DNA of 64,000 nucleotides from Vulcanimicrobiota bacterium (GTDB lineage: Bacteria > Vulcanimicrobiota > Vulcanimicrobiia > Vulcanimicrobiales > Vulcanimicrobiaceae). Shown here piece by piece: positions 23,588-40,010 of the stretch. Under the pieces are notes generated by a model. That model ran no database searches, was not told the DNA's origin, and was given only the letters and a program-made list of their open reading frames with translations. Both the position numbers and the translations under genes were made by a program. Location of the stretch: positions 704,001-768,000 of the forward strand of contig CAWHWQ010000001.1 of NCBI GenBank assembly GCA_963833095.1, read 5' to 3'. The stretch's first letter is position 1. Each line of letters starts with the position of its first letter.

Positions 23588-25627
23588 CTACGAAACGTAA
23601 GCCCGGGCCCCGATCATGCCCGCCGGCGCGAGCGGCATTTCGGGCGGCAGCTCCGCATAGCTGAGCACGTCGGCGCGAATACCCGAGCGTACCAAGAGAT
23701 CGGACAGCACGGGGCGCAGCGATGCGCTGCAGAGCAGCGCCGAGCGATCGCGCGGAACGCGCGCAATATAAGCGGCAACCTCGTCGCGCAAGTCGAGTGC
23801 ACGCTTCGGATCAGGCGCAAGCTCGGCGCCGTATCCGACCCATTGGCGCACGAGGTCACGATCGTACTCGGCGTCGATCACCAGCGGTTCGAGACATTCG
23901 ATTCCTCGTCTGCGCAGAAGATCCGGAAGAATCGCGCGCCGCGCCACTTCAGCGAGCTCGCGCGGATCGCGCGAGGGCGACTCGAGCATCGCCTGCAGCA
24001 CGGTGACCGGATCGCGGGGCCACGCCTGCTCTCGCAACAAATGGCCGAAGGCTTTGTGCAATGTGCCGAGCGGAAATGCATCGGTGCCGACATCGCGAAT
24101 CAGCGCCGGCATGGTCGCGCGTAAGTGCTCGAGCAGCGTCTGCAGCTCTTGGCGCCCAAGCAATTCGCCCGCGTGACGACGCACCGTCTCGGCAACGTGC
24201 GAACCGATGATCGAGATCGGATCAAATACCAGCGCGCCGGCCGACGCGGTGCGCTCGCGATCGTTCGGATCGATCCATGCAGCCGGCAATCCATACACGG
24301 GTTCCGCTTCGACGCGCAACCCGAGCCGAGAGAGGACCTCCGCATCGGCGACAGCCATCACGCGAGCGAGGTCGAGGCGTCCGTCGGCAACAATCCGGTC
24401 GCGCACACGAATCGCATACGTCTGCGGATCGCGTGCAAGATCGTCGCGCAGACGCACGCCGGGAAGCACCAGGCCGATCTCACCCGCAAGCGCGCGGCGC
24501 ACCTCACCAATACGATCCAGCAGCGCGTCGGAAAGCGGCGGTACCAGGAGATGGGCTAGATCCGCGCCGACCTCGATCGACATCGCGTCGACGCCGACCA
24601 AGCTCAGCGCGAGTTCGGGGCGGCGCAAGGCCTGACGCTTCGCGCGGTCGCTCGCACTACGCGACTGATCGTCGAGCATGCGCCTCTTCCGTACGGCAAC
24701 CTGCGCGAGAACGAACGCGCATGCGCCGAGAACTAGGAATACACCGCGCGGTAGCGCGGGCACGAACGACAGCACGAGCAGCAGGGCTCCGGCACTGCGC
24801 AGCACATCCGGCCGGGCGAAAAGCTGGGCCGCCAAGTCTGCGCCGAGGGCCCCGTCGGAGGCGACGCGCGTGACCATCATGCCCATCGCAGTTGAAATCA
24901 GAAACGCCGGCAACGTCGTCACCAGCGCATTGCCGATCGAAAGCAGCGCATAGGTATTGACCGCATCGAGCGGTGACAGGCCGTGATAGGCAATTCCTAC
25001 CACAATACCACCGGCAAGATTGAGCGCCACGATGACGAGCGCTGCCAGCGCGTCGCCTTTGACGAATTTTCCGGCCCCGTCCATTGCGCCATAAAAGTCA
25101 GCCTCGCGCTGCACCCCCGCGCGTTTGCGGCGCGCGCCCTCGGCATCGAGTGCGCCGGCGTGCACATCGGCGTCGATCGCCATCTGCTTGCCCGGCATGG
25201 CATCGAGCGTGAAGCGCGCAGCGACCTCGGCGACACGTTGCGACCCGCTTGCGATAACGATGAACTGAATCGTGATCAAAATTGCAAAGATGATCAGCCC
25301 AACGACCAAATTTCCATGCACGACGAACGCGCCGAATGCCGGAATGATCGATCCGACCGCGCCCGGTATTGCACCTTGCGTGAGGATGAGGCGTGTCGCC
25401 GAGACATCGAGCGAAAGACGAAAGAGCGTCGCGACCAGCAGTGCCGGCGCGAACGCCGAGAACTCGAGTGGGTCCTCGATCGTCACCGCCAGCAGAAGCA
25501 CCAGCGCCGACCCGAAGATGTTGATACCCAGGAGCACATCGAGTAGTGCCGGCGGCAACGGGACGATCAGAATGCCGACGATCGCAAGCAGAACTCCGGC
25601 AAAGGCATAGACCGGTAGCCGCGTCAC
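23588..25627 (-). CDS. flhA: Type III/flagellar export gate protein FlhA
   Basis: RVAEVAARFTLDAMPGKQMAIDAD, FYGAMDGAGKFVKGD, VLSYAEL. Confidence 0.95.
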   Translation of the reverse strand: MTRLPVYAFAGVLLAIVGILIVPLPPALLDVLLGINIFGSALVLLLAVTIEDPLEFSAFAPALLVATLFRLSLDVSATRLILTQGAIPGAVGSIIPAFGAFVVHGNLVVGLIIFAILITIQFIVIASGSQRVAEVAARFTLDAMPGKQMAIDADVHAGALDAEGARRKRAGVQREADFYGAMDGAGKFVKGDALAALVIVALNLAGGIVVGIAYHGLSPLDAVNTYALLSIGNALVTTLPAFLISTAMGMMVTRVASDGALGADLAAQLFARPDVLRSAGALLLVLSFVPALPRGVFLVLGACAFVLAQVAVRKRRMLDDQSRSASDRAKRQALRRPELALSLVGVDAMSIEVGADLAHLLVPPLSDALLDRIGEVRRALAGEIGLVLPGVRLRDDLARDPQTYAIRVRDRIVADGRLDLARVMAVADAEVLSRLGLRVEAEPVYGLPAAWIDPNDRERTASAGALVFDPISIIGSHVAETVRRHAGELLGRQELQTLLEHLRATMPALIRDVGTDAFPLGTLHKAFGHLLREQAWPRDPVTVLQAMLESPSRDPRELAEVARRAILPDLLRRRGIECLEPLVIDAEYDRDLVRQWVGYGAELAPDPKRALDLRDEVAAYIARVPRDRSALLCSASLRPVLSDLLVRSGIRADVLSYAELPPEMPLAPAGMIGARAYVS

Positions 25628-26652
25628 GTGGGGAGCCGCTCCCCAAGCGCTCGGCTGCGGATGAGCGATGCCACGACCTCTGCCACTGCGACGTAATGCT
25701 CATGCGCGATCGGATCACCGACGGCGCCGTCGCGATAGAGCGCGCGCGCCAAGTACACGTTTTCGATCACCGGTACGCCGTATTGCGCAGCCGCTTCTCG
25801 CACGCGTAACGCCATCTCGTCAGCCGCGCGAACCAACACCGTCGGCACCGGCACCTGCGGCGGGCGATAGTCCAGCGCGACGGCAACGTGCGTCGGATTG
25901 ACGACCACGAACGCCGCGTCTTTGACGCGCGCGAGCGCGCCCCGCATCAGATTGCGATGCAACGCCTTGCGGCGGCTTCGAGCGAGAGGATCGCCGTCGC
26001 TCTCTTTCAATTCTCGCCGCAGCTCGGCCAAACTCATGCGCAGCTTACGCAGCCATGCGCGCCGCGCCACGGCGAACTCCGCTATCGCAAAGAGCAATCC
26101 CACGGCGACCGCCGCAAACACAACATGCGTTGCACCGTCCCAAGCGATCTGCGCCGTGCTCAATGGCGGTAGCGCAACCGTCGCCGCGCTCACCAGTTGG
26201 CGCAGCGTGGGCACCATCGCGATCGACGCCAGGAAGAAGGCGACGAGCGCGCGCGCTCCGTGCAGGGCGGCTTCTCGTGAAATCATGCGCTTGATGCCTT
26301 CAACCGGGGCCAGCCGCTCGAATTTGAGCGACGGCGCCACGAACACGAAACCTCCGCCTTGCATGATGCCACCCAGCGTGCCGGCTACCGCGCCGGCGGC
26401 CATCGGCACCAGCGCAAGCGCTATCATCGCGACGCAGAGTGCCACCGGCGCCCCGCCGCGCGCGGCAACGGTCAACGCAGCGCGATCAAGTGCGCCAATC
26501 GGCGCCGCCGCAGCAAGCATCGCAAGCACAGCTGCTGCGAACGCGAGATTCGCACCGAACTCTTGTGCGCGCGGAAGATTGCCTTCTCGCCGCGCTTTAG
26601 CAATCCGTGATGGCGGCGCATCGAAGCTCTTCTCGCTGCTATCGGCGCTCAC
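25624..26652 (-). CDS. flhB: Export switch protein FlhB
   Basis: SEKSFDAPPSRIAKARREG, ELKESDGDP, NPTH autocleavage motif; GTG 26652 overlaps fliR stop. Confidence 0.93.
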   Translation of the reverse strand: MSADSSEKSFDAPPSRIAKARREGNLPRAQEFGANLAFAAAVLAMLAAAAPIGALDRAALTVAARGGAPVALCVAMIALALVPMAAGAVAGTLGGIMQGGGFVFVAPSLKFERLAPVEGIKRMISREAALHGARALVAFFLASIAMVPTLRQLVSAATVALPPLSTAQIAWDGATHVVFAAVAVGLLFAIAEFAVARRAWLRKLRMSLAELRRELKESDGDPLARSRRKALHRNLMRGALARVKDAAFVVVNPTHVAVALDYRPPQVPVPTVLVRAADEMALRVREAAAQYGVPVIENVYLARALYRDGAVGDPIAHEHYVAVAEVVASLIRSRALGERLPT

Positions 26653-27362
26653 GGTGTATTTCCCGGATAGAGCAACAACGGATGGGCCGCGCGCGCGGCT
26701 AAGAGTGGGAGCGACACCGCCGTAACGAGTAAGACTGCGCCGAAGACCAGCGGAAACGAGAGCAAGAATCCGGAGAACCGAGGGACCGCGCGCGAGAGGG
26801 CCGCAAGGGCAATCTGCACGACGAAAGCCAGCGCAATTGCCGGCGCAGCGACGGCCAACGCCACCAACACGATCGTGCCGGCAAGCGCTGCCGCAAACGG
26901 AAGCCACGCATGTGGATCGAAAGGCGCTCCCGGCGCTACCCGCACGAAACTCTGCGAAAACGCAAGCAGCGTTACCCGATAGGAGCCGAACAGAAAATAT
27001 CCGCCGGTAAACGCAATCGACCAGACGCGGCCGAACCCGCTTGGTGCGACCAACTGCACGCTCGGCGCGATCGCCTTGACGCCGACGTAATCGTCGAGCA
27101 TGCGCCCACCCGCGTATGCGCCGTCATAGAGCAGTGAGGCGCCCATGCCGATCGCGCAGCCGAGTAAGAATTCGACAACAAGTCCAATGAGGAGCATGAG
27201 TCCGTCGAAATGCACCTCGCGCAATCCCGGTGCGATCGCCACCGTGAGCAAAAGCGCGATTCCCGCGCGCAGCGTATGCGGCACGCTCGGATGCGAAAAG
27301 CCGGGCGCACGCGCAGCGAATCCCGCGCTGCGCGCAAAGACCAGCAGCGCGGTGGCCGTCAC
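26649..27362 (-). CDS. fliR: Export apparatus protein FliR
   Basis: FARSAG..APGFS, ALSRAVP..LSFP; multi-TM; lies between fliQ and flhB; GTG 27362. Confidence 0.88.
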   Translation of the reverse strand: MTATALLVFARSAGFAARAPGFSHPSVPHTLRAGIALLLTVAIAPGLREVHFDGLMLLIGLVVEFLLGCAIGMGASLLYDGAYAGGRMLDDYVGVKAIAPSVQLVAPSGFGRVWSIAFTGGYFLFGSYRVTLLAFSQSFVRVAPGAPFDPHAWLPFAAALAGTIVLVALAVAAPAIALAFVVQIALAALSRAVPRFSGFLLSFPLVFGAVLLVTAVSLPLLAARAAHPLLLYPGNTP

Positions 27363-27628
27363 GATCCGTACACCAGCGCCGGAATCGCGGCCAGCGCGTC
27401 GTTGAAGAGCTGCGCGCACGCGTGCATTCCGAAAGCGCCAAAAAGCGCGACGGTCACTCCGACGGCGATGACCTTGGGCAAGAGCGTGAGCGTTTGCTCT
27501 TGAACTTGGGTTGCGGCCTGCACGATCGCGACCGACGTGCCGACAAGTGCGGCGATCGCAAGCACCGGTATGCACAAGATTGCGGCTAGCACCATCGTCT
27601 CGCGCAACAACGCATCGAACGCGCCCAT
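27359..27628 (-). CDS. fliQ: Export apparatus protein FliQ
   Basis: 89 aa, QAATQVQEQTLTLLPK. Confidence 0.95.
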   Translation of the reverse strand: MGAFDALLRETMVLAAILCIPVLAIAALVGTSVAIVQAATQVQEQTLTLLPKVIAVGVTVALFGAFGMHACAQLFNDALAAIPALVYGS

Positions 27629-27682: not shown

Positions 27683-28348
27683 CTAGCGCACGAGAGCAAA
27701 GGCGAGGCCGTCGTAGCCCTTGTGCCCGACCGTCTGTAGCGCGGTGGCTTCCAGCCGCGGCTCTGCCGCAAGGAGTTCCAGCGCGCGCTTCGTGCCTGCG
27801 ACCATCGGGTCGCGGTTGGACGGATCGATGATCGCTCCATCGCGCACGACGTTGTCGAGAACGATCAGCGTGCCGGGGCGCGACAACTCGAGCGCGCGCC
27901 GAATGTAGTTGGCATTATTCTCTTTGTCAGCGTCGATGAAGAACATATCGAACGATTCAGCGCCCGACGCGATGAGCCGATCCAGCGTCTGCAACGCCGG
28001 CCCGAGTTCGACGGTCGCAATGGTATCTAATAGTGCTGCAGCCAGATTCGCGCGGGCGACCGCGGCATGCTCGGGATCGATTTCGAGCGTGATCAGCTTG
28101 CCGTCTTGGGGGAGAGCACGCGCGAGCCAGATCGCACTGTAGCCGCCAAGCGTCCCTATTTCGAGAATCCGGCGCGCTGCTTGCATACGCGCGAGCAGAT
28201 AGAGGAGCTTTCCTTGCACGGCCGAGACGGCGATCGGGGGCAGCCCAGCCGCGGCACTCGTATCAAGCGCGTGGGTAAGATCGGAGTCCTCGCCCACGAA
28301 CAGTGTAGAAAGATAGTCGTCGACTTTCTCGGCGCGATCGGTCGTCAT
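27683..28348 (-). CDS. O-methyltransferase (caffeoyl-CoA OMT-like)
   Basis: LEIGTLGGYS, FIDADK, LDNVVR, KGYDG. Confidence 0.92.
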   Translation of the reverse strand: MTTDRAEKVDDYLSTLFVGEDSDLTHALDTSAAAGLPPIAVSAVQGKLLYLLARMQAARRILEIGTLGGYSAIWLARALPQDGKLITLEIDPEHAAVARANLAAALLDTIATVELGPALQTLDRLIASGAESFDMFFIDADKENNANYIRRALELSRPGTLIVLDNVVRDGAIIDPSNRDPMVAGTKRALELLAAEPRLEATALQTVGHKGYDGLAFALVR

Positions 28349-29244
28349 CGTACAACTCCAAAGCTGGGACGCCAGGCGCTTCCCGCGATCAACGCCGAAA
28401 CGATGGCGCGCGTCGCCGGCGAGCGGTTGAGCGTATAAAAGTGAATTCCCGGCGCGCCCTGCCCAAGAAGCTCGGTCGCCTGCAAGGCCGCGTAGGCGAC
28501 GCCTAAGTCTTCCACCGCTTTGGGATCCTCGCGCCGCAATTCGAGTTCGCGCAGGAGCTTAGGCGGAATCGACGCGCCGATGCTGTTGGTAAAGCGCGTC
28601 ACCTGCGACGCGTTGGTAATCGGCATGAGGCCCGGAATCACCGGCACGCCAATGCCGATCGCGCGCGCTTGCGCGGCGAATTCGCCGAAACGGTCATTGT
28701 CGAAAAACAATTGGGTAATGAGGAAATCCGCGCCCGCATCGACCTTCTCTTTGCAATGCTGTAGGTCGGCATCCGGGCTTGAGGCCTCCTTGTGCGTCTC
28801 GGGGTAGCACGCAGCACCGATGCAGAAGTCGTAGTTGCGGCGCAGCATCGCGATCAGATCGCTCGCATGAGCAAACCCGCCGGCCGGTGCTTCAAACGAC
28901 GCCGCTCCCTTGGGCGCATCGCCGCGAAGAGCGAGAACATTCTCAATCCCACCCCGCGCAAGATCGTCAAAGAGCGCGCGCAGTTCCGCGCGCGTCGAGC
29001 CGACACAGGTCACGTGCGCCATTACGGTAACGCCGATGTCGCGTTGAATCTGTTTGGCCAGCGCCACCGTCCGCTCGCGCGACGAGCCGCCGGCACCGTA
29101 GGTGATCGAGACGAAGGCCGGGCGCAGCGGAGCGAGTAATTCGATCGTGCGAAGAAGCGCGCGCGATCCTTCGTCGTCCTTGGGCGGAAAGAACTCAAAC
29201 GAGAAGAACGGCCGTTGTGTCGCTAGGGCATCCGATATACGCAC
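28345..29244 (-). CDS. metF: 5,10-methylenetetrahydrofolate reductase
   Basis: SFEFFPPK, TYGAGGS, LALRGD, ITQLFFD, HFYTLN. Confidence 0.96.
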   Translation of the reverse strand: MRISDALATQRPFFSFEFFPPKDDEGSRALLRTIELLAPLRPAFVSITYGAGGSSRERTVALAKQIQRDIGVTVMAHVTCVGSTRAELRALFDDLARGGIENVLALRGDAPKGAASFEAPAGGFAHASDLIAMLRRNYDFCIGAACYPETHKEASSPDADLQHCKEKVDAGADFLITQLFFDNDRFGEFAAQARAIGIGVPVIPGLMPITNASQVTRFTNSIGASIPPKLLRELELRREDPKAVEDLGVAYAALQATELLGQGAPGIHFYTLNRSPATRAIVSALIAGSAWRPSFGVVR

Positions 29245-29298
29245 GATTGCCGTAGGCTTATCTAAAGCTGGCGGCGACGCCTCCGCGAAGCCAAGCGT

Positions 29299-29646
29299 TC
29301 AGACGGTCCATGTCCAGTCGATCGGGTAGTTGAAAATCGGGGTGAATGTCACGCCGACCGCCTCCATATCCCTGCGGCCGTCGACGACCATCTCCTTGAG
29401 CCCGTCCAGCTGCGCCGCATGCTCGTCGGAGTCCCAGACGCTAACCTGCACGATCGAGCCCTTCGGCGAGACGCCCGCATAAAAATGAATGAGCCCCGAG
29501 AGCCGCCTGATCGCCGGGATGATGTACTCCGAGGTCTTCTTGCTCATGGCGTCGACCTCGGCGAACCGGCTCGGGTCGAAGCTGGCGCGCGAGACGCGGA
29601 CGACGGCGGCTGCCGGCAGTGATTCGGTTATGGTGATTCTTTCCAT
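29299..29646 (-). CDS. Small ABM/dimeric alpha-beta barrel-like protein
   Basis: 115 aa; IPAIRRLSGL..VSVWDSDEHA pattern typical of ABM-like proteins. Confidence 0.6.
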   Translation of the reverse strand: MERITITESLPAAAVVRVSRASFDPSRFAEVDAMSKKTSEYIIPAIRRLSGLIHFYAGVSPKGSIVQVSVWDSDEHAAQLDGLKEMVVDGRRDMEAVGVTFTPIFNYPIDWTWTV

Positions 29647-29695
29647 CGTGATCCTTTGTCTCGGTCATTACATCACGAGTGCCATCATAATATAA

Positions 29696-30184
29696 TTAAG
29701 GCGTGCATGAAGCCGACTGAGGAAAACTTTTCTCATCCACGGAGTGTGTGCAAATGGAGGCGATCAGCATTGCCGTGCGCTTATCCGGTAGTCGCGAAGC
29801 AAATCGATACGGCAATAAGCAGAGCGATGCTACGCGCACGTCCTGCCCGATGTACCCAACACGGTTACGCGATCCGTCATATGTCAGCGTTTGCGTGAAC
29901 CAAACCTTCCCGTCGTCTGCCGCAGCGAGGGCCAGTATCTGCTCGTCAATACCGGCAACCTGGTAGACGTGCAGGGTTCCGTCGGCGCGAAGCTCGCCGA
30001 TTCGCGTTCCCGCCTGCTGCGCAAACCAGACGTCGTTCTTTCGATCGACGGTTATCGGTCCCGGTACTAGCTCCACGGCGGGCAGCGCATATTGATGGAT
30101 CGGGAACCCACTCGTGGTCGAGATTCGCGCGGCGTTCATAATGATCGTGGCCAGCAATCCGAGGAACAGCGAAAGAGCACCCAT
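29696..30184 (-). pseudogene. Truncated Vgb-like (virginiamycin B lyase) beta-propeller
   Basis: Signal peptide plus only about 2 blades (ITVDRKNDVWF..RIG; AADDGKVWFT..RVGYI), followed by a tail that loses the repeat pattern. Confidence 0.55.
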
Positions 30185-30199
30185 CTTTTTCGGTCGTCC

Positions 30200-32746: not shown

Positions 32747-33465
32747 TTCAATAGATCCATTGCGGTCTTGCTGATGCCACCCTGGGCCTTATGCGCGGCT
32801 GCCAACGCATCGAACGCCACGTAGGCCTCTTGAAGCCGGTCAAGACTGCGATCGAAGTCGATGCGGCTTTCCTCGCGCTGCATCGGCGCGACACTCGCGA
32901 AGTTTCCGTCGCCGGCGCGGCCAACGTGCGGCACCGTTCCCGGCGGCGCGACAAAATGATTTGCATCGCTGGCCCCCAACTTGGTGGCTGCCGGAAAGCG
33001 CGCAAGAGCAAGTTGTCCAACGACAACACGTTCGCGCTCGCGAGCGCCACTGCGCGGGTCGACGCTTGTACGATCGTAAGCGAGCGCCCCGCTCGGCTCG
33101 ATTCGCAGTTCGTTCACACGTCCCAGTGCCTCGTCGACCGCGTCGATGTGCAATTCGCTGGTCGCACCGCCCGGCGACGTGAATCCGAGGATCGGCCGTC
33201 CGTTCGCACCGACCAACATTCCGTCAGTAATGGCAAATCCACCGTCGCGCGTATACACGGCGCGGCCACGTTCGTCGGTCGTGACGAAGTAGGCATCCGC
33301 GGGTGGCGCGACGGACAGGGGATCGAGCGCCGCGCGCGAGGTTGCCCGATCCGTTGCAGCATCACCGAACTGCGGCACGGCTCCCGGTGTGAACGCGCGT
33401 TGCACGTCTTGCGCGCGCTGCGCGATGCGGTCGAGCGCGTCTTGCGTCGCCGCGTTGATCATCAC
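32743..33465 (-). CDS. Rod-like protein, FlgF/FlgG family
   Basis: AYFV..YTRDGGF..LVGANG, VGQLALARF; terminal D0-like helices are divergent. Confidence 0.8.
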   Translation of the reverse strand: MMINAATQDALDRIAQRAQDVQRAFTPGAVPQFGDAATDRATSRAALDPLSVAPPADAYFVTTDERGRAVYTRDGGFAITDGMLVGANGRPILGFTSPGGATSELHIDAVDEALGRVNELRIEPSGALAYDRTSVDPRSGARERERVVVGQLALARFPAATKLGASDANHFVAPPGTVPHVGRAGDGNFASVAPMQREESRIDFDRSLDRLQEAYVAFDALAAAHKAQGGISKTAMDLLK

Positions 33466-33469: not shown

Positions 33470-34006
33470 TCACACCCCGCTTAGGTCGATGCGCAGCGCG
33501 ATGCCGCGCAGGGCTAGGGCATAGCGCGCTTCCTCGAGCGCGCGGGCCACACTCGAACGGACCGCAGCCGGGCATACGGCAACCAGCCGAATTCCGGACG
33601 CCGTGGTTTGCAGCGCGACATGCACCCGCGCTTGCGCTCCATCGATCGTGAATGTCGCGCGCCTGTTCGAGCGCACCGGATCGAGAAACGCGCGCTCGAT
33701 GCGCCGGGCGAGCGGCGAACGCTCCGCGCGGCGTTCCGGCGGCGCGGCGGTGCGCCGCGTCATCTGGCCCTTTCGCTCGGCGCCCGCGGGCGGCTGTTCG
33801 GGGGAAAGGCGGCGCGAGTATTCGCCGGCGCGCCGTTGCTCGCGCTGGATCGCCGCGTGCTTCGGGCTCGTATGGTCGCACGAAGCCGGCGAGCTCCTCG
33901 CCTGCGCAAGGTGCAGCGCCGAGTACCAGGCCTGCGAGAGAGAGCGCCGGTCGATCGCTGCCAGCGGCGCGGTAAGAATGCTAAAGCCCAACTGATGCGT
34001 GATCAT
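33470..34006 (-). CDS. Short FliK-like (T3S4 domain) length-control protein
   Basis: Low-complexity N-terminus, then ARVHVALQTTASGIRLVAV..VRSSVARALEEARYALALRGIAL resembling the FliK C-terminal domain; cluster context. Confidence 0.55.
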   Translation of the reverse strand: MITHQLGFSILTAPLAAIDRRSLSQAWYSALHLAQARSSPASCDHTSPKHAAIQREQRRAGEYSRRLSPEQPPAGAERKGQMTRRTAAPPERRAERSPLARRIERAFLDPVRSNRRATFTIDGAQARVHVALQTTASGIRLVAVCPAAVRSSVARALEEARYALALRGIALRIDLSGV

Positions 34007-34048: not shown

Positions 34049-35674
34049 TTAATGCGGGATTGTGAGCACGTCGAGCTTGCGGTCGTGCCCGTCGTCGAAG
34101 CCCTGCGCGCGCTGCAGGAACAACCCGTGATTGGCCAGGTCAAAGGTCAACACGAAATTTCGCAGCGAGGCATACCCAACATTGCCGCCGTCATTGCGAT
34201 CGGCAAAGGCGCCCGTGGTGCCGAGCACAACATCCGTGTAGCGATTGAATAGCCGGTACGGCCCCAGTTGCAACACGGCTACCACCGCGCCGACTGCGGC
34301 CACCGATCCACCGATGCCGCGATTGAGTTGGGGACCATAGTGCGCGGTCGAGACGAGTCCGGGATGCTCATCCAGGAAACTCTTGAAAAGCAGCAATTCG
34401 TTCGCGTCTCCCGTGTCGACGATCACGCGCGTCGGTGCATCTTGTATCTGCGCGACGATTTCGGGAAGTTCGCGGTCGGTGTCGACATCGAGCCGAATGC
34501 CGTCGGGGGCAAGGCTCCCGGGCTCCGCAATGGTCAGCGTCCCCTGTGTGGGATCAAAACGCAGTTCGGCCGCTGCAAAGAACGGATAGCCCAAGATTCC
34601 GTCAACGTGCATTGACGAGAGCGGAGGCAAATCGAGAGCGGTTGCAAGGTGCATGGGGAAGGTGACGCCGCCAATCGTGATCGGCGGCGCGTCGACCACG
34701 CCCGGGCTTGTTGTGCGTCCGGCTCCGCGGATCTCCACCGTTCCTTGGGGATGCAGCCCAAGCGCCGAAACGAGCGACGCATCAAAGACATCGGCTTGGG
34801 CAGCGGAGTCGATCAAGAACGTATACGATTTTCCTTCGATCGTAACGTTCGTATAGATCAGGCCGCCGCGTTCTTGATACGGCACCGTCACAGGCGCCCC
34901 ATTGTCGACCACCGCAACCGTAAACGGCGAGAAGATACTCGCCGCGATCGGTTGATCGACCGTAACGTTGGTAACTTGGGAGGTGATGTCAAAGCGGTGC
35001 TCACCGTCCGAGTCGACCTCGGTGAAGGGAATCAAAAATCCGCCGACGACTCGATAATCGCTGTAAACCGCGACGTGCGTGCTGTCGTGATCGACGTAGG
35101 ATTTTTCATCGATGAGCCACGTCTTGGCGTCGATACCGATCTCGTAGGTCTCGCCGCTCGGCGGTGAGATCCGCAGCCGATAGATGGATCGTCCGTCAGG
35201 GAGCGTCGCGACGGCGATATACCGTACCCACTCGGAATGCGACGCAAAAAGGTCACTATCGATAAAATCCTCGGTGACCTGCCGGCGTGCAACGATGCCT
35301 TGCAACTCGCGGATCTCGCCGTTGGGATTTTGCTCCCATAGCCTGTCGCCGACGCGTAACATGCGATCGGTTCGAATGCCGAAGGACTCGTCGCGTCGTT
35401 CGCTATCACCCCGCTGCCACTCGTGAAACGTTCCTGCAATGCCGACGCCAAGGAGCGTGCCGGTTGTCTCGTGCGTCCTCGGTTCGCGCAAATGCAGGGC
35501 AGCAAGAGCGGCGACGTGGTTAGCTAGGATCGTGGACAGTGGAGGGGCTTGCGGTTTCGTTTGGGCGCAGAGTGCGGCTACGCACGCGAGGAGCGAGGCG
35601 CTACGGCGTAGCGTTTCCGCGATACTTCGCGTAGCTGGAGAGGACGTTTTGCACGTAATTCTGCGTCTCGGCAT
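34049..35674 (-). CDS. Secreted protein with two retropepsin-like aspartyl protease domains
   Basis: FLIDSAA..VDGILG and IVDTG..GNVG; LolA-like N-terminal region; start uncertain (ATG 35674 overlaps the transglycosylase gene). Confidence 0.75.
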   Translation of the reverse strand: MPRRRITCKTSSPATRSIAETLRRSASLLACVAALCAQTKPQAPPLSTILANHVAALAALHLREPRTHETTGTLLGVGIAGTFHEWQRGDSERRDESFGIRTDRMLRVGDRLWEQNPNGEIRELQGIVARRQVTEDFIDSDLFASHSEWVRYIAVATLPDGRSIYRLRISPPSGETYEIGIDAKTWLIDEKSYVDHDSTHVAVYSDYRVVGGFLIPFTEVDSDGEHRFDITSQVTNVTVDQPIAASIFSPFTVAVVDNGAPVTVPYQERGGLIYTNVTIEGKSYTFLIDSAAQADVFDASLVSALGLHPQGTVEIRGAGRTTSPGVVDAPPITIGGVTFPMHLATALDLPPLSSMHVDGILGYPFFAAAELRFDPTQGTLTIAEPGSLAPDGIRLDVDTDRELPEIVAQIQDAPTRVIVDTGDANELLLFKSFLDEHPGLVSTAHYGPQLNRGIGGSVAAVGAVVAVLQLGPYRLFNRYTDVVLGTTGAFADRNDGGNVGYASLRNFVLTFDLANHGLFLQRAQGFDDGHDRKLDVLTIPH

Positions 35675-36197
35675 ACGGGGGTACGCCGCCATACTTCTCC
35701 ACTGCGCCGGGACCCGCATTGTAGGCCGCGACCGCAAGGCGAACATCGCCGTTGAAATGGTCGAGCAAGCCTTTGATGTACTTGGTGCCACCTGCTACGT
35801 TCTGCGAAGGATCGTAGGCATCTGTGACACCGAGACCCGCAGCGGTACCAGGCATGAGCTGCATCAAGCCCTGCGCGCCGACGTTCGAGGTAGCGTGCGC
35901 ATTAAAGCCCGACTCGTTGGCAATGATTGCCTTGATCAGCGCCGGATCGACGTTTTGCGACTGCGCATTGTCATTGACCAGGGCATCGATCTGCGCCGGC
36001 GGTAGCATCGCAGGTGCGCCGGGTGCGCCTTGTGCGCTCAGTTCGGTACCCTGAGCAGCCATTTGCGATTGCAACATCGAGGCGAACGAACCCGCACCAT
36101 CCGGAGCGGCTTGGGGCAGACCGGGCAATTGCACGGGAGCGCCCGTGATCTGTTCGATACGGGAAGCGACGGCTGAGAGTTCAGTGCTGATATCCAT
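35601..36197 (-). CDS. Lytic transglycosylase (SLT domain)
   Basis: AIIANESGF, GAQGLMQLMP, AAYNAGPG, ETQNYV; no Sec signal peptide. Confidence 0.95.
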   Translation of the reverse strand: MDISTELSAVASRIEQITGAPVQLPGLPQAAPDGAGSFASMLQSQMAAQGTELSAQGAPGAPAMLPPAQIDALVNDNAQSQNVDPALIKAIIANESGFNAHATSNVGAQGLMQLMPGTAAGLGVTDAYDPSQNVAGGTKYIKGLLDHFNGDVRLAVAAYNAGPGAVEKYGGVPPYAETQNYVQNVLSSYAKYRGNATP

Positions 36198-37227
36198 GGG
36201 CTTCCTCCAACATATCGGCGGTTTGGTGCAAGGCCTCTAGGGCCGCGGCCACGGTTATGGGCTGCGGGCCCTGACGCAGGAGCCGCTCGAGCGCGCTCTC
36301 AGCCGCAATCGCGACTTTCGTCTGCGGATCGGCCGGTTCTATGCCAAGCGAGCGAGCGTCGGCGCAACGCTCCAGCCGAGCCAGCGCCGCCCGGACCAGC
36401 GCTGCGGCGCGCTGATGTTCCGCAGTGGCGACCGCGTCCATCGTGCGGCTTGCGCTGGCGAGCACGTCGATAGCCGGAAAGTGCCCGGCGTGAGCAAGTC
36501 GCGATGAAAGCGCGAGATGCCCATCGAGCAGCGAGCGCGCGTTTTCGCTGACGGGGTCGCGATCCTCACCATCGGTCAGGACCGTTGCAATCAACGTGAC
36601 CGATCCATCCGTGAATGCGCCGGCACGCTCGACGAGTTGTGCGGTACGCGCGAAGACGCTCGGCGGATAGCCGCCGCGTCCGACGCTTTCGCCCCTCGCG
36701 ACGGCAAGTTCACGCAGCGCATTGGCATAACGCGCCAAGCTATCGAGGACCGCCACTACGTGCAAACCACGAGCTGCTAGCGCACATGCATGCGCCATGA
36801 GTAATTCCGCCGCGCGCACGCGCTCATGCGCTGTCCGATCGCTGGTGGCGCAGATCACCGTCGTTCGCTCGTCGCGCGCAGCGATCCAACGCTGCGCTTC
36901 GCGGCCGCGCTCGCCGACCAGACCAATGGCAACAGCGTCCGCGCGCGCCCCGCGGACGATCGTTTCGAGCAGGGTAGATTTGCCGGCACCCGGCGCACCG
37001 AAGATTCCGATGCGCGCACCGCGTCCGACCGTAAGCAACGCATCGATGCTTCGCACACCGGTCCACAACGGCGTGACAATCGCGCTGCGCTGGGCCGGCG
37101 TTGCCGCCGGCGCGCCGACGAGAACGTAGACGCCGTCGAGCGGAGCTAGTCCGTCCAGCGGTTCACCGCGCCCGTCGAGCGCCCGCCCGAACGCCGCCGT
37201 GCCGAGCATCGCCCGATCGGCAATCAC
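36181..37227 (-). CDS. fliI: FliI/SctN-type export ATPase lacking the N-terminal domain
   Basis: GAPGAGKS, GERGRE, LDSLARYA, GYPPS, GHFPAID; 348 aa. Confidence 0.9.
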   Translation of the reverse strand: MIADRAMLGTAAFGRALDGRGEPLDGLAPLDGVYVLVGAPAATPAQRSAIVTPLWTGVRSIDALLTVGRGARIGIFGAPGAGKSTLLETIVRGARADAVAIGLVGERGREAQRWIAARDERTTVICATSDRTAHERVRAAELLMAHACALAARGLHVVAVLDSLARYANALRELAVARGESVGRGGYPPSVFARTAQLVERAGAFTDGSVTLIATVLTDGEDRDPVSENARSLLDGHLALSSRLAHAGHFPAIDVLASASRTMDAVATAEHQRAAALVRAALARLERCADARSLGIEPADPQTKVAIAAESALERLLRQGPQPITVAAALEALHQTADMLEEAHGYQH

Positions 37228-37709
37228 GCGCCGGCTCGCGCCAGCATCTGTTCGATGCGAACACCCAAACGCGCATCGATCGATCCGCTGCGTAGCTCGA
37301 TCTGCACGTCGTCGCTGCGCAGCGACGCATCCGGAAGAACCGGAACGTCGAAATCATGGAGCCGCTGCTGCGATGGATGCACGCGCACTGCCACCGGAAT
37401 CTCCCCACAGCGTTCGCGGGCGCGTCGCACGATCGCTTCGATATCAGCCGGTGCGAGAAGCAATTCACGGCCGACGACGTCGATCGCGATCTCGCGCAAA
37501 AGCTCGGTGAGCGAACGGTCGAGGGCGTCTGCCAGCATCGCGCGGAAGCGTCGTAGGCGCTCGCACACATCTGCGACGAGCTGCTCGTCCGGCGGCATCT
37601 CGCTGGGCTCGGGCTCGCCTTGCGGGTCTTCAACGAGCGTTTCTTGTTCTACGATGATAACCGGCGGATCTTTGCGCAGCCAGGCTGCAAATGTCATAAA
37701 CTCAGGCAT
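37224..37709 (-). CDS. fliH: Short FliH-like protein
   Basis: VAVRVHPS..PDASLRSDDVQIELRSGSIDARL; lies between fliF and fliI. Confidence 0.8.
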   Translation of the reverse strand: MPEFMTFAAWLRKDPPVIIVEQETLVEDPQGEPEPSEMPPDEQLVADVCERLRRFRAMLADALDRSLTELLREIAIDVVGRELLLAPADIEAIVRRARERCGEIPVAVRVHPSQQRLHDFDVPVLPDASLRSDDVQIELRSGSIDARLGVRIEQMLARAGA

Positions 37710-39174
37710 GACGCGCCAGCAATTCGTCGGCATTGGGGATCACCGAGCTGTGGGTGCGCGCCATGCGCTTCACAATCGCTTCGCGCTCGTGCGGCGGATA
37801 GAGTTCGAGTACCGCAGCCGCGGTTGCAGCCGGAAGCGCGCTGATGATCGCCGCCGCCGTATGCGGCGGCTCTCCCGCCAGCGCGCCGCGCACGCGCGCC
37901 GGTGCATAACCCGTCACAGTACGTGAGGTGCGCGCGATCGCGTCGCGTTCGAGCGCGCCTTTGATCAAGGCGTGCACGTTCGGCAGCAGGTAGCGCCCGA
38001 ACGCGAGCAGACCGATCACGATCGCGAGCGTCGGCAAGAGCGGCACGACCGCGCCATAGAGCAGAAACCATGCATCATGCTTTTCTGCTAGGACACGATG
38101 AAACGCCACCGCCTGTACGCTCAATTCGTCGCCACGATGAGGATCGAAGCCGACAGTCGCTGCCGCCAGTTCGCGAACCTTGGCTAGGTCCGCGCCACGA
38201 CCAGCATCAACGAATACGGCGGTTGAAATCCGCGCGATCGCGCCCGGATCAGCATGCGCGACGCTTTCGTGCGTCTCGCTTCCGCGGTCGTCATGCTCGT
38301 CGTTCTTTGCGTATTTCTTGCCTCCGCCGTCGTAGGATTCGGTTTGCGCGCTGCTCTCGATCGGATCGCCGCCGATCGGCGAGCGCCGCGTGTCGCGCTC
38401 CTCCGAGGTCGCATGCGTATATTCGGCGTGCACGCGCACGATTGCAACCCCCGCGCCAAGCGAGGAATCCAACGCCGACTGCAGCGATCGCTCCAGGGCG
38501 TCGGGATCGTCGCCGCCGGTACCACTGTCATCGAGCGCGACGCCGCGATCGTCCAGGATCGTCACATTGGCCGGATCGAGCCCTTCGACCGAGGCGCCGA
38601 CGAAGCGTCGGATCCCGGCCACGGCGTCACGCGAAAGGACGGCGCCGGGATGCAGTTGTATGCGCACGCTCGCCGTGGCTGGGCGCGTGCTCTGATCCGC
38701 GAACTGCGCGCTTTGCGCCGGCGCCACGATCACGCGCGCATCGTCGACGCCGTCGACGCTGCGTAGCGCCACTTGAACATCGCCCGCAAGGCCGCTGCGC
38801 GTTTGCGCATCGATAACCGCTTGAGGCGTCAACACGCCGACATTGGCAAGCGCCTCACCCATGGTCTCAACGTGCGCGTGGGGGACGCCCGCTAGCGAGA
38901 GACGCAAGAGCAAATCGCTGCGCCGGGCCGCGTCGACGATGACGTTGTCGTCGCTAGGCGAAAACGGCACGCTCCAGGCAGCGAGTTGTTCCTGCACCTC
39001 GGCAAGCTGGTCGGCGTGGAGCGGGCTTGCAAAAAGCGGCGCACGGTCCGGGTGTCCGACGATCGTCGCGACAACCGCAAATCCCACCAAGAGAGCGACG
39101 ATGGCAGCCGCGACAATTCGCATGGACGGTGGAAGCGCACGCACGCGAGCGATAGTCGAGTGCAACTGCAGCAT
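37702..39174 (-). CDS. fliF: MS-ring protein FliF fused to a FliG-middle-like domain
   Basis: TM, RBM domains (VDDARVIVA, ATASV, VEGLDPANVTILDDRG, GFDPHRGD), second TM, then GEPPHTAAAIISALPAATAAAVLELYP..IVKRMA resembling the FliG EHPQ region. Confidence 0.85.
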   Translation of the reverse strand: MLQLHSTIARVRALPPSMRIVAAAIVALLVGFAVVATIVGHPDRAPLFASPLHADQLAEVQEQLAAWSVPFSPSDDNVIVDAARRSDLLLRLSLAGVPHAHVETMGEALANVGVLTPQAVIDAQTRSGLAGDVQVALRSVDGVDDARVIVAPAQSAQFADQSTRPATASVRIQLHPGAVLSRDAVAGIRRFVGASVEGLDPANVTILDDRGVALDDSGTGGDDPDALERSLQSALDSSLGAGVAIVRVHAEYTHATSEERDTRRSPIGGDPIESSAQTESYDGGGKKYAKNDEHDDRGSETHESVAHADPGAIARISTAVFVDAGRGADLAKVRELAAATVGFDPHRGDELSVQAVAFHRVLAEKHDAWFLLYGAVVPLLPTLAIVIGLLAFGRYLLPNVHALIKGALERDAIARTSRTVTGYAPARVRGALAGEPPHTAAAIISALPAATAAAVLELYPPHEREAIVKRMARTHSSVIPNADELLARHA

Positions 39175-39175: not shown

Positions 39176-39472
39176 TTAGATCTGTAAGTTCAGGAGCGTT
39201 TGCACGGTCTGCGCACTGCGCTGCGCGGCGGCTGTCGCGACCGAGAGCGCCACATCGGCCTGAGCTCGCTGATACATTGCATCTTGCAGCGAGCCGGTGC
39301 CCGCGGCATAGGCATCCTCTGCCTGCGTCGCGTCACCAAGCGCGCGACCAATCGCATCAAGAGCTCCGGCAAAATCCGATCCGCAGGACGCGGCTCTAGC
39401 TTCCAAGTCCTCGAAGGGCGACCGACCGGAGGAGGGTGGAACCGTGTCTGGCGTAAGCAGTTCGACCTTCAC
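39176..39472 (-). CDS. fliE: FliE-like basal body protein
   Basis: FAGALD..AEDAYAAG..LQDAM..QADVAL..QTLLNLQI; GTG 39472 overlaps flgC stop. Confidence 0.85.
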   Translation of the reverse strand: MKVELLTPDTVPPSSGRSPFEDLEARAASCGSDFAGALDAIGRALGDATQAEDAYAAGTGSLQDAMYQRAQADVALSVATAAAQRSAQTVQTLLNLQI

Positions 39473-39798
39473 GCCAGTCGCCCCATATCGATCGTGCGTT
39501 CTTCGAGCGTCTTGCCTACATCGAAGAGCGAGGCGTCCGATTCGTAGGCGCGCGACGCGTTCATCACTGCAATCATCTCGGTAATCACGTCGACGTTGGT
39601 TCCCCGCTCCTGATGCGTGCCCGCGAACTGCACGGCAGTGCCGTCGCCGTCTTCGGTAAGCGCAAATTCGGGAATCAGGCGAGCGTAATGGCCATTTGGA
39701 CCCGCCGCCTCGGCGGCGGCCACATTTCGCGCGCACACGTCGAGCGCCGCGCGCTGCGCGTCCATTGCGGCGGCCGCGCTCGCGAGCAGATCGATCAT
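39469..39798 (-). CDS. flgC: Short FlgC proximal rod protein
   Basis: AMDAQRAALDVCARNVA..Y.R; NVDVITEMIAVMNASRAYE. Confidence 0.88.
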   Translation of the reverse strand: MIDLLASAAAAMDAQRAALDVCARNVAAAEAAGPNGHYARLIPEFALTEDGDGTAVQFAGTHQERGTNVDVITEMIAVMNASRAYESDASLFDVGKTLEERTIDMGRLA

Positions 39799-40010
39799 TT
39801 CGTCACCGCCTTGATTTCCTCGAGGCGCGCATGCATCGCGCCGAGCAGCGCTTCATCGAAAATTGCCGCCTGCGCGGTCTGCGCCATCGCCGCGTCGGCG
39901 GTTCGCCCACCCTCCCCGGCGTTCGCGCGGGCGATAACGTTTTGCGCTTGCTGTAATCGGACTGCAGCGGATGCGAGTCCGCCGCGCAGGGATTCGGCTA
40001 CGTCGAACAT
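39795..40010 (-). CDS. flgB: Very small FlgB-like protein
   Basis: 71 aa, QQAQNVIARAN helix, ending LEEIKAVTK; first gene of the flgB-flgC-fliE order. Confidence 0.55.
   Translation of the reverse strand: MFDVAESLRGGLASAAVRLQQAQNVIARANAGEGGRTADAAMAQTAQAAIFDEALLGAMHARLEEIKAVTK

What the first reader, a model, noticed from the sequence alone, without database searches (positions are those of the whole stretch)
23588..40010. Miniaturised flagellum-derived type III export machine, apparently non-motile
Seen: flgB-flgC-fliE-fliF(G)-fliH-fliI-slt-protease-fliK-like-flgF/G-fliM-fliN-fliP ... fliQ-fliR-flhB-flhA, mostly with overlapping start/stop codons and intact frames. Export-gate motifs are conserved while structural parts are shrunk (FlgB 71 aa, FlgC 109, FliH about 161, FliI 348, FliK-like 178). 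Not in the cluster: separate fliG, fliJ, flgD, flgE, fliL, fliO, motAB, flgKL, fliC/D, P/L rings, chemotaxis genes and secretin. Known: injectisomes and endosymbiont basal bodies arose by loss of motility parts. Inference: an independent repurposing of the basal body as a short-rod secretion or cell-contact device. Orderly trimming with intact frames argues against simple decay.
Basis: partly seen in the sequence, partly recalled or inferred. Interest (0 to 1): 0.88.

Follow-up and report, generated by a model that had tools for sequence, protein, structure and literature searches.

The report
Motorless second flagellar-type export machine
This soil bacterium (phylum Eremiobacterota) carries, besides an ordinary flagellum, an old and well-kept second set of flagellar basal-body and export genes with no motor, hook or filament, which its flagellum-less relatives also keep and which most likely builds a non-rotating secretion device not yet described in print.

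Summary
The gene cluster is real (window 23588-40010, minus strand): FlgB-position protein, FlgC, FliE, FliF ending in a FliG-middle-domain tail, FliH, FliI, a signal-less lytic transglycosylase, a retropepsin-like exported protein, a short FliK/SctP-type ruler, a divergent FlgE/F/G axial protein, FliM, FliN, FliP, then (after inserted metabolic genes) FliQ, FliR, FlhB, FlhA. But the cluster is not part of that flagellum. It is an old paralogue found across the class. Of 115 sampled family members, 61 have the cluster's marker and no flagellin; a sister order has it with flagellin in 0 of 32. dN/dS is 0.03-0.31. A satellite locus outside the window adds FlgF', FlgG' and a FliA-type sigma factor. 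FliG_C and FlgI were found in 0 of 5 near-complete aflagellate genomes. Trees place it on the flagellar side, apart from injectisomes, but AU tests (p 0.25-0.28) cannot exclude a sister position. Best reading: a non-rotating, flagellum-derived type III export device; its substrates and outer-membrane passage are unknown. No paper found describes it; earlier notes of this scan saw it in other Eremiobacterota genomes.

The parts
39795..40010 (-). 71-aa protein at the flgB position (identity as FlgB unproven)
   Evidence: No Pfam/NCBIfam hit. Length 71-72 aa in 12 of 12 relatives' loci. dN/dS 0.10. PDB profile search found no rod protein.
39469..39798 (-). FlgC-like proximal rod protein, 109 aa
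   Evidence: Flg_bbr_C 5.8e-6; TIGR01395 FlgC 2.5e-12, below cut-off. The sister-order counterpart is 158 aa with both rod motifs.
39176..39439 (-). FliE-like, about 87 aa (start uncertain)
   Evidence: FliE is the only family hit: Pfam E 0.0035, TIGR00205 E 2.8e-4, both below cut-off.
37702..39174 (-). FliF MS-ring protein fused to a FliG-middle-domain-like tail, 490 aa
   Evidence: YscJ_FliF 4e-26, YscJ_FliF_C 1e-12, FliG_M 3.3e-9 at residues 427-476. FliG_M 5.8e-10 against FliG_N 0.11. PF14841 is on record for 117 of the 120 listed homologues. An invariant E435-P436-P437 motif is seen in 41 sequences.
37224..37733 (-). FliH, 169 aa
   Evidence: Pfam FliH 2.6e-6.
36181..37227 (-). FliI export ATPase lacking most of the N-terminal domain, 348 aa
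   Evidence: ATP-synt_ab 8.6e-61 from residue 57. SctN model 313 bits and FliI model 304 bits, both below cut-off. A Walker A motif is present in 7 of 7 loci; the protein is 346-348 aa in G000, G002 and G006.
35601..36197 (-). Lytic transglycosylase with no visible signal peptide (FlgJ/SltF-like role inferred)
   Evidence: SLT 1.1e-30. The best NCBIfam hit is a flagellar assembly lytic transglycosylase, 3e-25. The N-terminus has no hydrophobic stretch.
34049..35674 (-). Exported protein with two retropepsin-like domains (start uncertain)
   Evidence: Asp_protease_2 6e-17. Signal-like hydrophobic N-termini in G000, G002, G022 and G026. Same position in 6 of 6 family/order loci. Atlas: a Peptidase A2 family common in Vulcanimicrobiota. 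The DSA and DTG motifs were read by eye.
33470..34006 (-). Short FliK/SctP-type ruler and specificity-switch protein, 178 aa
   Evidence: Alignment A1 shows a conserved 32-aa N-terminus, a variable linker of about 60 aa and a conserved C-domain. The only PDB profile hit is 2rrl FliK T3S4. AF2 C-domain pLDDT is about 90. Foldseek gives 2rrl at rank 1 and PscP (5cuk) at rank 3. Present in 100 of 115 family genomes.
32743..33465 (-). Divergent FlgE/F/G-family axial protein, 240 aa (possible distal rod or hook equivalent)
   Evidence: LlgE_F_G_D1 5e-6. NCBIfam FlgEFG subfamily 5e-11, FlgF 3e-8, FlgE C-terminus 3e-8. Fused in frame with the ruler gene in G089.
31940..32746 (-). FliM, 268 aa (CheC-like middle domain plus SpoA domain)
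   Evidence: Foldseek ranks 1-7 are Salmonella FliM in the C ring (best 2.5e-10); FliM middle-domain crystal structures give TM 0.57-0.61. The C-terminus matches FliM/FliN SpoA at 6.9e-11 by profile.
31659..31943 (-). FliN, 94 aa
   Evidence: FliMN_C 3.6e-25. TIGR02480 99 bits, above its cut-off.
30934..31590 (-). FliP export-gate subunit
   Evidence: Pfam FliP 2e-71. TIGR01103 225 bits, above its cut-off.
27683..30646 (-). Inserted, unrelated genes: HTH_37 regulator, Vgb-lyase-like fragment, 115-aa unknown, MTHFR, O-methyltransferase
   Evidence: Pfam. MTHFR lies between fliP and fliQ in all 5 loci of other family genomes, the O-methyltransferase only within the genus, the HTH gene only in G000 and G002. 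fliP and fliQ abut in the order-level relative G026.
27359..27628 (-). FliQ
   Evidence: TIGR01402 8e-17.
26649..27362 (-). FliR
   Evidence: Bac_export_1 1.8e-25; TIGR01400 6e-19.
25624..26652 (-). FlhB with the NPTH autocleavage motif
   Evidence: Bac_export_2 2.8e-71. NPTH is found in 5 of 7 loci; one of the other two is cut by the locus end and one lacks the exact motif.
23588..25627 (-). FlhA export-gate subunit, 679 aa
   Evidence: FHIPEP 2.2e-192. TIGR01398 FlhA 604 bits against SctV 484 bits, both below cut-off. 36% identical to the genome's canonical FlhA.

Best explanation
The cluster encodes a second type III export machine, derived from the flagellum, that does not rotate and builds no filament.

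Shown:
- It has a complete export gate (FliP/Q/R, FlhB with NPTH, FlhA), FliH and FliI.
- Its MS-ring protein FliF ends in only the FliM-binding middle domain of FliG.
- It has a true FliM and FliN, rod-family proteins (FlgC, FliE, a divergent FlgE/F/G protein), a signal-less lytic transglycosylase and a short FliK/SctP-type ruler.
- A satellite locus elsewhere in the genome (G000 contig C1, about 847951-850506) holds FlgF', FlgG', a FliA/WhiG-type sigma factor and a 102-aa unknown protein.
- The system is an old paralogue of the flagellum. It is kept across the class under purifying selection, with or without a canonical flagellum.

Inferred:
- The FliF tail docks a static FliM/FliN platform directly.
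- The gate first exports rod subunits and the transglycosylase through the peptidoglycan.
- The short ruler then flips FlhB to a second substrate class. This class could be secreted proteins or a FlgM-like anti-sigma factor that reports completion to the FliA-type sigma.

Not resolved: what is exported, and whether or how the outer membrane is crossed.
For: Family and fold assignments.

A second, canonical flagellar set in the same genome. Paralogue identities are FlhA 36%, FlhB 27%, FliP about 45%, FliI about 40%, FliN 53%, FliF 26%.

Distribution:
- The FliF-fusion orthologue is in 41 of 41 relatives.
- Gene order is conserved in 6 of 6 family/order loci. The sister order f3 has it split into two loci.
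- Class survey of 151 genomes: FHIPEP in 138, flagellin over cut-off in 45, and in 0 of 32 in f3.
- The ruler marker is in 100 of 115 family genomes. Cross-tabulated by me: 61 marker only, 39 both, 2 flagellin only, 13 neither.
- Five near-complete aflagellate genomes: FliG_C 0 of 5, FlgI 0 of 5. Each still has the FlgF'/FlgG' pair beside a sigma factor.

Selection: dN/dS is 0.03-0.31 for 17 of 17 genes, against 0.06 for MTHFR.

Phylogeny: the FlhA trees (59 and 55 rows) and the 5-protein tree (34 rows, 1665 columns) all separate the injectisome rows from the rest at 100 SH-aLRT, with this clade on the flagellar side. At E<=1e-190, 69 of the 70 nearest full-length FlhA representatives had FlhA as their best NCBIfam model and none had SctV.

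Cultured relative: Vulcanimicrobium alpinum is reported as diderm, without flagella or a flagellin gene (passages), yet its Table S8 lists a fliN.
Against: No substrate, secretion signal class or outer-membrane conduit was identified, and no expression data were found.

The system is dispensable in some lineages: 10 of 115 family genomes have no FHIPEP match, and G081 has a ruler remnant with 3 stops.

The FliG_M tail was not detected by Pfam in the two f3 FliF proteins tested, so direct docking may not hold for the whole class.

The FlgB identity of the first gene is unproven.

Stators were not searched genome-wide in the aflagellate genomes.

Retention of FliM, FliN, a ruler, the FlhB switch and a FliA-type sigma would also fit an unrecognised external structure.

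The tallies are from metagenome-assembled genomes and include the unpublished genomes G036, G062, G076 and G150.
Confidence: 0.7

Rival explanations
1. It builds an unconventional motility organelle, using hook, filament and torque parts that are too divergent to recognise or are borrowed from other systems.
For: It keeps FliM and FliN, a ruler and the FlhB NPTH switch that imply late substrates, a full rod set with FlgF'/FlgG', and a FliA-type sigma.
Against: No FliG C-terminal domain in the cluster or in 5 of 5 aflagellate genomes. No flagellin in 0 of 32 f3 genomes, nor in 61 family genomes that hold the marker. No MotA/B in the cluster. The cultured relative is reported to have no flagella and to move by type IV pili (passages).
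Confidence: 0.08
2. It is an accessory of the canonical flagellum, for example a second export gate or a second flagellar type that shares hook and filament with the main system.
For: In this genome both systems coexist. 39 of 41 flagellin-positive family genomes also have the marker.
Against: It is kept in genomes with no flagellin, FliG_C or FlgI. It has its own rod proteins and sigma factor. The two FlhA clades are not sisters in any of the three trees.
Confidence: 0.05
3. It is a decaying remnant with no present function.
For: Several parts are shortened. Unrelated genes are inserted between fliP and fliQ. It has been lost in some lineages.
Against: All frames are open. dN/dS is 0.03-0.31 in 17 of 17 genes. 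It is conserved across three families of a class. The shortened lengths are themselves conserved.
Confidence: 0.03
4. It is a sister or stem lineage of the injectisome, not an independent offshoot: a surviving intermediate that has lost the motor, hook and filament but still has a flagellar rod and no secretin.
For: AU tests do not reject joining it with the injectisome clade: FlhA, delta lnL 16.5, p 0.28; five proteins under LG+F+G4, delta lnL 21.0, p 0.25. FliI and FlhB score slightly higher with the SctN and SctU models than with the flagellar ones.
Against: All three best trees place it on the flagellar side. FlhA, FliP, FliQ and FliR score higher with flagellar models. No injectisome-specific part (SctC, SctD, needle) gave a family hit in the cluster. 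Long branches would tend to pull the two together, yet the best trees do not join them.
Confidence: 0.14

Closest known systems
Bacterial flagellar basal body with its flagellar type III export apparatus
   Same: Same protein families and much the same gene order: flgB-position gene, flgC, fliE, fliF, fliH, fliI ... fliM, fliN, fliP, fliQ, fliR, flhB, flhA. It also has a FliK-type ruler, FlhB NPTH, rod proteins, a FlgJ/SltF-like transglycosylase and a FliA-type sigma.
   Different: No FliG N- or C-terminal domain, and no stator, hook, hook cap, junction, filament, cap, P/L ring or chemotaxis genes. It is paralogous to, and coexists with or outlives, the organism's real flagellum.
Non-flagellar T3SS (injectisome), including the secretin-less Myxococcales type (that type is recalled from Abby and Rocha 2012, which I did not read here)
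   Same: A motorless type III export machine with an ATPase complex, a SpoA-domain platform and a T3S4 ruler/switch protein.
   Different: It keeps flagellar rod proteins, FliE, a FliF-type single ring protein and a FliM with a CheC-like middle domain. No SctC, SctD or needle gave a hit. The best trees place it on the flagellar side, with Archangium and Chlamydiales SctV on the other side, though AU tests are inconclusive.
Chlamydiaceae FliF-FliG fusion (Bergeron 2016, PMC4768692; passages read)
   Same: FliF carries the FliG middle domain at its cytoplasmic end, in an organism or system with no flagellar rotation.
   Different: The chlamydial protein is about 330 aa with a reduced periplasmic region and sits among very few flagellar genes beside a separate injectisome. 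Here FliF is 490 aa with both the YscJ_FliF and YscJ_FliF_C regions, inside a near-complete basal-body cluster.
[quoted passage not shown]
   Same: Flagellar export and basal-body genes kept without flagellin. In Lysobacter, secretion of non-flagellar proteins depends on fliI and flhB.
   Different: Those are leftovers of the organism's only flagellum. This is a separate, deeply diverged paralogue with its own sigma factor. It is conserved across a class and is present alongside an intact flagellum in this genome.

Membership tests
Bacterial flagellum (motility organelle) | Type III export gate FliP/Q/R, FlhB, FlhA with FliH/FliI | tested here: met
   Pfam and NCBIfam hits for all seven.
Bacterial flagellum (motility organelle) | Rotor protein FliG with its torque-generating C-terminal domain | tested here: not met
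   Only a FliG_M-like tail on FliF. The genome's single FliG_C lies in the canonical locus. FliG_C is in 0 of 5 aflagellate genomes that keep the cluster.
Bacterial flagellum (motility organelle) | Stator MotA/MotB | tested here: not met
   No MotA/MotB family hit among the cluster's ORFs. MotB_plug was seen only in the canonical locus. Not searched genome-wide in the aflagellate genomes.
Bacterial flagellum (motility organelle) | Hook and filament (FlgE, FlgK/L, flagellin) | tested here: not met
   None in the cluster. Flagellin over cut-off in 0 of 32 f3 genomes, and absent from 61 of the 100 family genomes that hold the cluster marker.
Bacterial flagellum (motility organelle) | P/L rings in diderms (FlgI, FlgH) | tested here: not met
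   FlgI in 0 of 5 aflagellate carriers. FlgH/FlgI are present only in the canonical locus of this genome. FlgH was not searched in the five.
Non-flagellar T3SS (injectisome) | Export-gate proteins branch within the SctV/U/R/S/T clade | tested here: inconclusive
   The best trees place them outside it, with the split at 100 SH-aLRT. AU tests do not reject a union (p 0.28; p 0.25).
Non-flagellar T3SS (injectisome) | Secretin SctC, ring protein SctD, needle SctF | tested here: not met
   No such family hit among the cluster's ORFs. Not searched genome-wide.
FliK/SctP ruler family (T3S4 domain) | C-terminal T3S4 fold after an N-terminal export region and a variable linker | tested here: met
   Alignment architecture. 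Only PDB profile hit is 2rrl, E 0.044. Foldseek: 2rrl 1.9e-3, PscP 5cuk 0.019 with TM 0.64. The sequence-level support is weak.
Remnant flagellar T3SS of a secondarily aflagellate bacterium (Lysobacter/Buchnera type) | Derived from the organism's own single flagellar gene set by loss of parts | tested here: not met
   It coexists with a complete canonical set in this genome. Paralogue identity is 26-53%. The two FlhA clades are separate.
Chlamydiaceae-type FliF-FliG fusion | FliF with a FliG M-domain as cytoplasmic tail and a shortened periplasmic region (about 330 aa) | tested here: inconclusive
   The tail feature is met (FliG_M 3.3e-9). The shortened periplasmic region is not (490 aa, both FliF Pfam regions). 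Kinship with the chlamydial protein was not tested.

The most novel reading that the evidence does not exclude
The Eremiobacterota system is a surviving sister or stem lineage of the injectisome. That would make it a living example of the proposed intermediate between flagellum and non-flagellar T3SS: motor, hook and filament are already lost, while the flagellar rod, FliE, FliM, a FliK-type ruler and a FliA-type sigma are still present and no secretin has yet been recruited. It occurs in a phylum with a cultured, aflagellate member.
Probability: 0.15. Interest if true: 0.92.

Novelty: new variant of a known kind. Interest (0 to 1): 0.78.

Why it matters
Only two families of type III machines are in common use as models: flagella and injectisomes. 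This would be a third, stable composition: a basal body with a rod, a ruler, a switch and its own sigma factor, but no motor, hook, filament, P/L rings or secretin. It is kept for a long time across a whole bacterial class and is independent of whether a real flagellum is present.

It bears on how injectisomes could have arisen from flagella. It also raises the questions of what a rod-only machine exports in a diderm cell and how a C ring can be anchored without FliG.

A cultured aflagellate relative exists (Vulcanimicrobium alpinum). Its paper lists a fliN but does not discuss such a cluster, and I did not test by name whether it carries the cluster. If it or another culturable strain does, cryo-tomography, knock-outs and secretomics could test the idea directly.

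For annotation: these genes are currently named as ordinary flagellar genes, which wrongly suggests motility in aflagellate Eremiobacterota.

Tried and rejected
1. Expression: the look-up of sequencing runs listed 4 DNA holders from one study and no RNA holder.

2. Complex prediction (FliF tail with FliM) was not available, so the docking of FliM on the FliF tail stays an inference.

3. FlgB identity: profile against PDB and hhalign against the f3 protein at that position gave nothing convincing.

4. The nearest outside FlhA (P0124) has no name. Its only close relative in the species genomes is a 5-kb contig of an uncultured bacterium (64%). It says nothing about origin.

5. 'unk559' near the satellite locus turned out to be an antisense artefact over divIVA/sepF/yggS.

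6. A shared promoter: flgB-position and flgF' upstream regions of G000 both show CGGCCAT 34 nt before the ATG and a TAnnnT just upstream. I made no statistical test, so this is only a lead.

7. The treekit AU test on the five-protein set did not finish. I replaced it with my own iqtree2 run under LG+F+G4, a simpler model.

8. Split canonical flagellar genes in G000 (FliI, FliP, FliR, FlgE, FliG, FliM) were not read as pseudogenes, because non-flagellar genes are split too (H+-PPase, CHAD). Assembly indels are likely.

9. Literature: searches for Eremiobacterota with type III secretion or flagell*, FliF-FliG fusion, flagellum-derived secretion, non-flagellated FT3SS and Vulcanimicrobium found no description of this system. 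bioRxiv supplements and non-open journals were not searchable.

Full report
**What is in the window.** Positions 23588-40010 carry a chain of co-oriented minus-strand genes, mostly with overlapping or abutting stops and starts. Pfam and NCBIfam identify:
- FlgC (109 aa), FliE (about 87 aa; its only family hit, below cut-off)
- FliF (490 aa), FliH (169 aa), FliI (348 aa)
- an SLT lytic transglycosylase
- a protein with aspartyl-protease (retropepsin-like) domains
- a divergent FlgE/F/G-family protein (240 aa)
- FliN, FliP, FliQ, FliR, FlhB and FlhA

Most score below the NCBIfam equivalog cut-offs; only FliP and FliN pass. FlhA, FliP, FliQ and FliR score higher with flagellar models. FliI and FlhB score slightly higher with injectisome models. 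Five unrelated genes separate fliP from fliQ: an HTH regulator, a Vgb-lyase-like fragment, a 115-aa unknown, MTHFR and an O-methyltransferase.

**The three proteins without family hits.**
- The 178-aa protein has a conserved 32-residue N-terminus, a variable linker of about 60 residues and a conserved C-domain in 29 orthologues. Its profile finds a single PDB sequence, the FliK T3S4 domain (2rrl, E 0.044). In the AlphaFold model the C-domain has pLDDT near 90. Foldseek ranks 2rrl first (1.9e-3) and the PscP switch domain third (TM 0.64).
- The 268-aa protein is a true FliM. Foldseek ranks 1-7 are Salmonella FliM in the C ring (best 2.5e-10), followed by FliM middle-domain crystals and CheC/CheX. 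Its C-terminus is a SpoA domain (6.9e-11 by profile).
- The 71-aa protein at the flgB position is conserved in length in 12 of 12 loci and has dN/dS 0.10. I could not show that it is FlgB.

**The FliF tail and other motifs.**
- The FliF tail matches the FliG middle domain (5.8e-10) much better than the N domain (0.11). It carries an invariant E-P-P-(H) motif in 41 sequences.
- FlhB keeps NPTH in 5 of 7 loci. One of the other two is cut by the locus end and one lacks the exact motif.
- FliI keeps a Walker A motif in 7 of 7 loci.
- The transglycosylase has no visible signal peptide.
- The retropepsin-like protein has a signal-like N-terminus.

**The organism is not aflagellate.** Names carried by homologues place it in Candidatus Eremiobacterota/Vulcanimicrobiota. 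The same genome (2.8 Mb, 8 contigs, 81% complete) has three flagellin-family matches, a second FlhA, a second FliP and its only FliG_C elsewhere. Pfam on those loci shows a full canonical set:
- FliF, FliG, FliH, FliI, FliK, FlgD, FlgE, FlbD, MotB, FliM, FliN/Y
- FliP/Q/R, FlhB, FlhA
- CheA/W/C/B/R
- FliE, FlgF, FlgG, FlgA, FlgH, FlgI, a rod-binding protein, FlgK, FliW, CsrA and flagellins

The two sets are only distantly alike: FlhA 36%, FlhB 27%, FliF 26%, FliN 53%. Several canonical genes look split in this assembly, but so do unrelated genes, so I read that as assembly error.

**Distribution.**
- The FliF fusion has an orthologue in 41 of 41 relatives, at 70-91% identity in the genus, 48-57% in the family, 41-43% in the order and 33-39% in a sister order f3.
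- Gene order is conserved in the 6 family/order loci examined. fliP and fliQ abut in the order-level relative, so the MTHFR insertion is family-specific.
- In f3 the system is split in two loci and is less reduced: FlgC 158 aa, FliI 440-444 aa. Its FlhA is 46-51% identical to the window's, against 36% for the window genome's own canonical FlhA.
- In a sample of 151 class genomes, FHIPEP is found in 138 and flagellin over cut-off in 45, none of them among 32 f3 genomes.
- The ruler gene, a marker specific to this system, is in 100 of 115 family genomes.
- Crossing by hand gives 61 genomes with the marker and no flagellin, 39 with both, 2 with flagellin only and 13 with neither.
- Ten family genomes have no FHIPEP at all, and one has a ruler remnant with three stops, so the system can be lost.
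- These tallies include the unpublished genomes G036, G062, G076 and G150. No single claim rests on them alone.

**A satellite locus.** In five near-complete aflagellate genomes FliG_C and FlgI were not found (0 of 5 each). Each still has three Flg_bbr_C matches: the cluster's FlgC and an adjacent pair elsewhere. That pair is FlgF'-FlgG', followed by a sigma factor whose best model is FliA/WhiG (107 bits in this genome, 165 bits in f3, both below cut-off). In the family a 102-aa unknown follows the sigma gene. In f3 an 86-aa FlgJ-N-terminal-like protein lies between FlgG' and the sigma gene. This genome has the orthologous locus on contig C1 at about 847951-850506, outside the window. It is distinct from the canonical FlgF/FlgG on contig C4. 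So the machine has a fuller rod and its own regulator.

**Selection.** Nei-Gojobori dN/dS against G002 is 0.03-0.31 for all 17 genes. The highest values are the ruler (0.31) and FliH (0.29). The inserted MTHFR gives 0.06. The more distant G006 gives 0.02-0.31.

**Phylogeny.**
- At E<=1e-190, 69 of the 70 nearest full-length FlhA representatives have FlhA as their best NCBIfam model, and none has SctV.
- An FlhA tree of 59 rows and one of 55 rows with named taxa separate the injectisome rows from everything else at 100 SH-aLRT. In the second tree those rows are six plasmid SctV plus Chlamydiales, Archangium, Puniceicoccales and Lentisphaeria. The cluster's clade (family, order and f3 together, 100) lies on the flagellar side.
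- A five-protein tree (FlhA, FlhB, FliP, FliQ, FliR; 34 taxa, 1665 columns) gives the same split.
- The clade is not sister to the phylum's canonical flagellar proteins in any tree. Its nearest neighbours differ between trees and are weakly supported.
- Against my reading: AU tests do not reject a tree that joins the clade with the injectisome rows. For FlhA, delta lnL is 16.5 and p 0.28. For five proteins under LG+F+G4, delta lnL is 21.0 and p 0.25. An independent origin is therefore favoured by the best trees and by gene content, but is not established.

**How it most likely works.**

Shown: the parts list above; the absence of the torque domain, stator, hook, filament, P/L-ring and secretin families from the cluster; and its persistence without a flagellum.

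Inferred from established flagellar biology (recalled):
- FliF forms the membrane ring.
- Its FliG_M tail binds the FliM middle domain, as FliG_M does in solved FliG-FliM complexes such as those among the Foldseek hits. This would anchor a static FliM/FliN platform that feeds FliH/FliI and the gate.
- Rod subunits and the signal-less transglycosylase are exported first.
- The short ruler then triggers the FlhB switch to a second substrate class.
- With a FliA-type sigma next to the rod genes, one candidate late substrate is a FlgM-like anti-sigma factor. Secreted effectors are another.
- The divergent FlgE/F/G protein next to the ruler (fused to it in one genome) may be the distal element whose length is measured.

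Nothing found here explains passage of the outer membrane. The retropepsin-like exported protein is conserved in place across family and order and is the only candidate within the cluster.

**Comparison with what is known.**
- The nearest described things are the flagellar basal body itself and the injectisome, including secretin-less forms.
- The chlamydial FliF-FliG_M fusion is another (Bergeron 2016; passages read).
- So is the flagellar export apparatus retained by non-flagellated Lysobacter enzymogenes and used for secretion (abstract read).
- None matches. This is a separate, deeply diverged paralogue that coexists with a real flagellum.
- The paper on the cultured relative Vulcanimicrobium alpinum reports a diderm cell, no flagella, no flagellin gene and pilus-based motility (passages). 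Its Table S8 lists only a fliN. The word 'secretion' does not occur in the main text.
- My literature searches found no description of the system.
- Earlier notes of this scan had already seen the same kind of cluster and the FliF-FliG_M fusion in other Eremiobacterota genomes. They agree with this report but are not independent evidence.

**Verdict.** It is a new variant of a known kind of system. It is of clear interest for the evolution of type III machines and could be tested in a cultured relative once one is shown to carry the cluster.

Noticed in passing
window 29696-30184 (-); L020:13778-14809 (+) = G000 C1 153778-154809; L041:3937-4953 (-): Vgb-lyase/NHL-type beta-propeller genes, some with lipoprotein-like N-termini, lie inside or beside three different flagellar-type loci. 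One is a fragment between fliP and fliQ here. One is a full gene between flhB and fliR of the canonical locus. One is just upstream of the f3 locus B. The repeated association is unexplained.
   Followed up: partly
window 20803-23457 (-); L041 and L043: secD-secF lie directly downstream of flhA on the same strand. This neighbourhood is kept in the sister order f3 (one extra gene intervenes in G030). It may be old synteny or a shared operon.
   Followed up: partly
G000 C1 about 146-174 kb and C4 about 44-56 kb (L020-L023): Many canonical flagellar genes of this assembly are split (FliI, FliP with 2 in-frame TGA, FliR, FlgE, FliG, FliM). So are the H+-pyrophosphatase and a CHAD protein. This suggests indel errors in the assembly, not pseudogenes. 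The genes of the cluster in the window show open, unsplit frames.
   Followed up: partly
L075:757-2037 (-) (genome G089): In one single-contig relative the ruler gene and the FlgE/F/G-like gene form one 427-aa open frame. This is either a natural fusion or a lost stop.
   Followed up: no
window 40011-40066 and L082:5423-5520: Only about 55 nt separate the first gene of the cluster from a divergent TMEM175-family gene (40066-40659, +). This stretch and the region upstream of the satellite flgF' both show CGGCCAT 34 nt before the ATG and a TAnnnT close to the ATG. This could be a shared promoter and leaderless transcripts. It was not tested statistically.
   Followed up: partly
window 28345-29244 (-): An MTHFR gene sits between fliP and fliQ in this genome and in all 5 loci examined from other family genomes. 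It has dN/dS 0.06. So a housekeeping gene has lain inside the cluster, and perhaps been co-transcribed with it, for a long time.
   Followed up: partly
L082:2339-2911 (-) = G000 C1 847339-847911: An ECF sigma factor gene follows the satellite locus's FliA-type sigma and the 102-aa unknown.
   Followed up: no
window 48000-52000: G+C drops to 0.55-0.56 against about 0.61 elsewhere in the window. Not examined.
   Followed up: no
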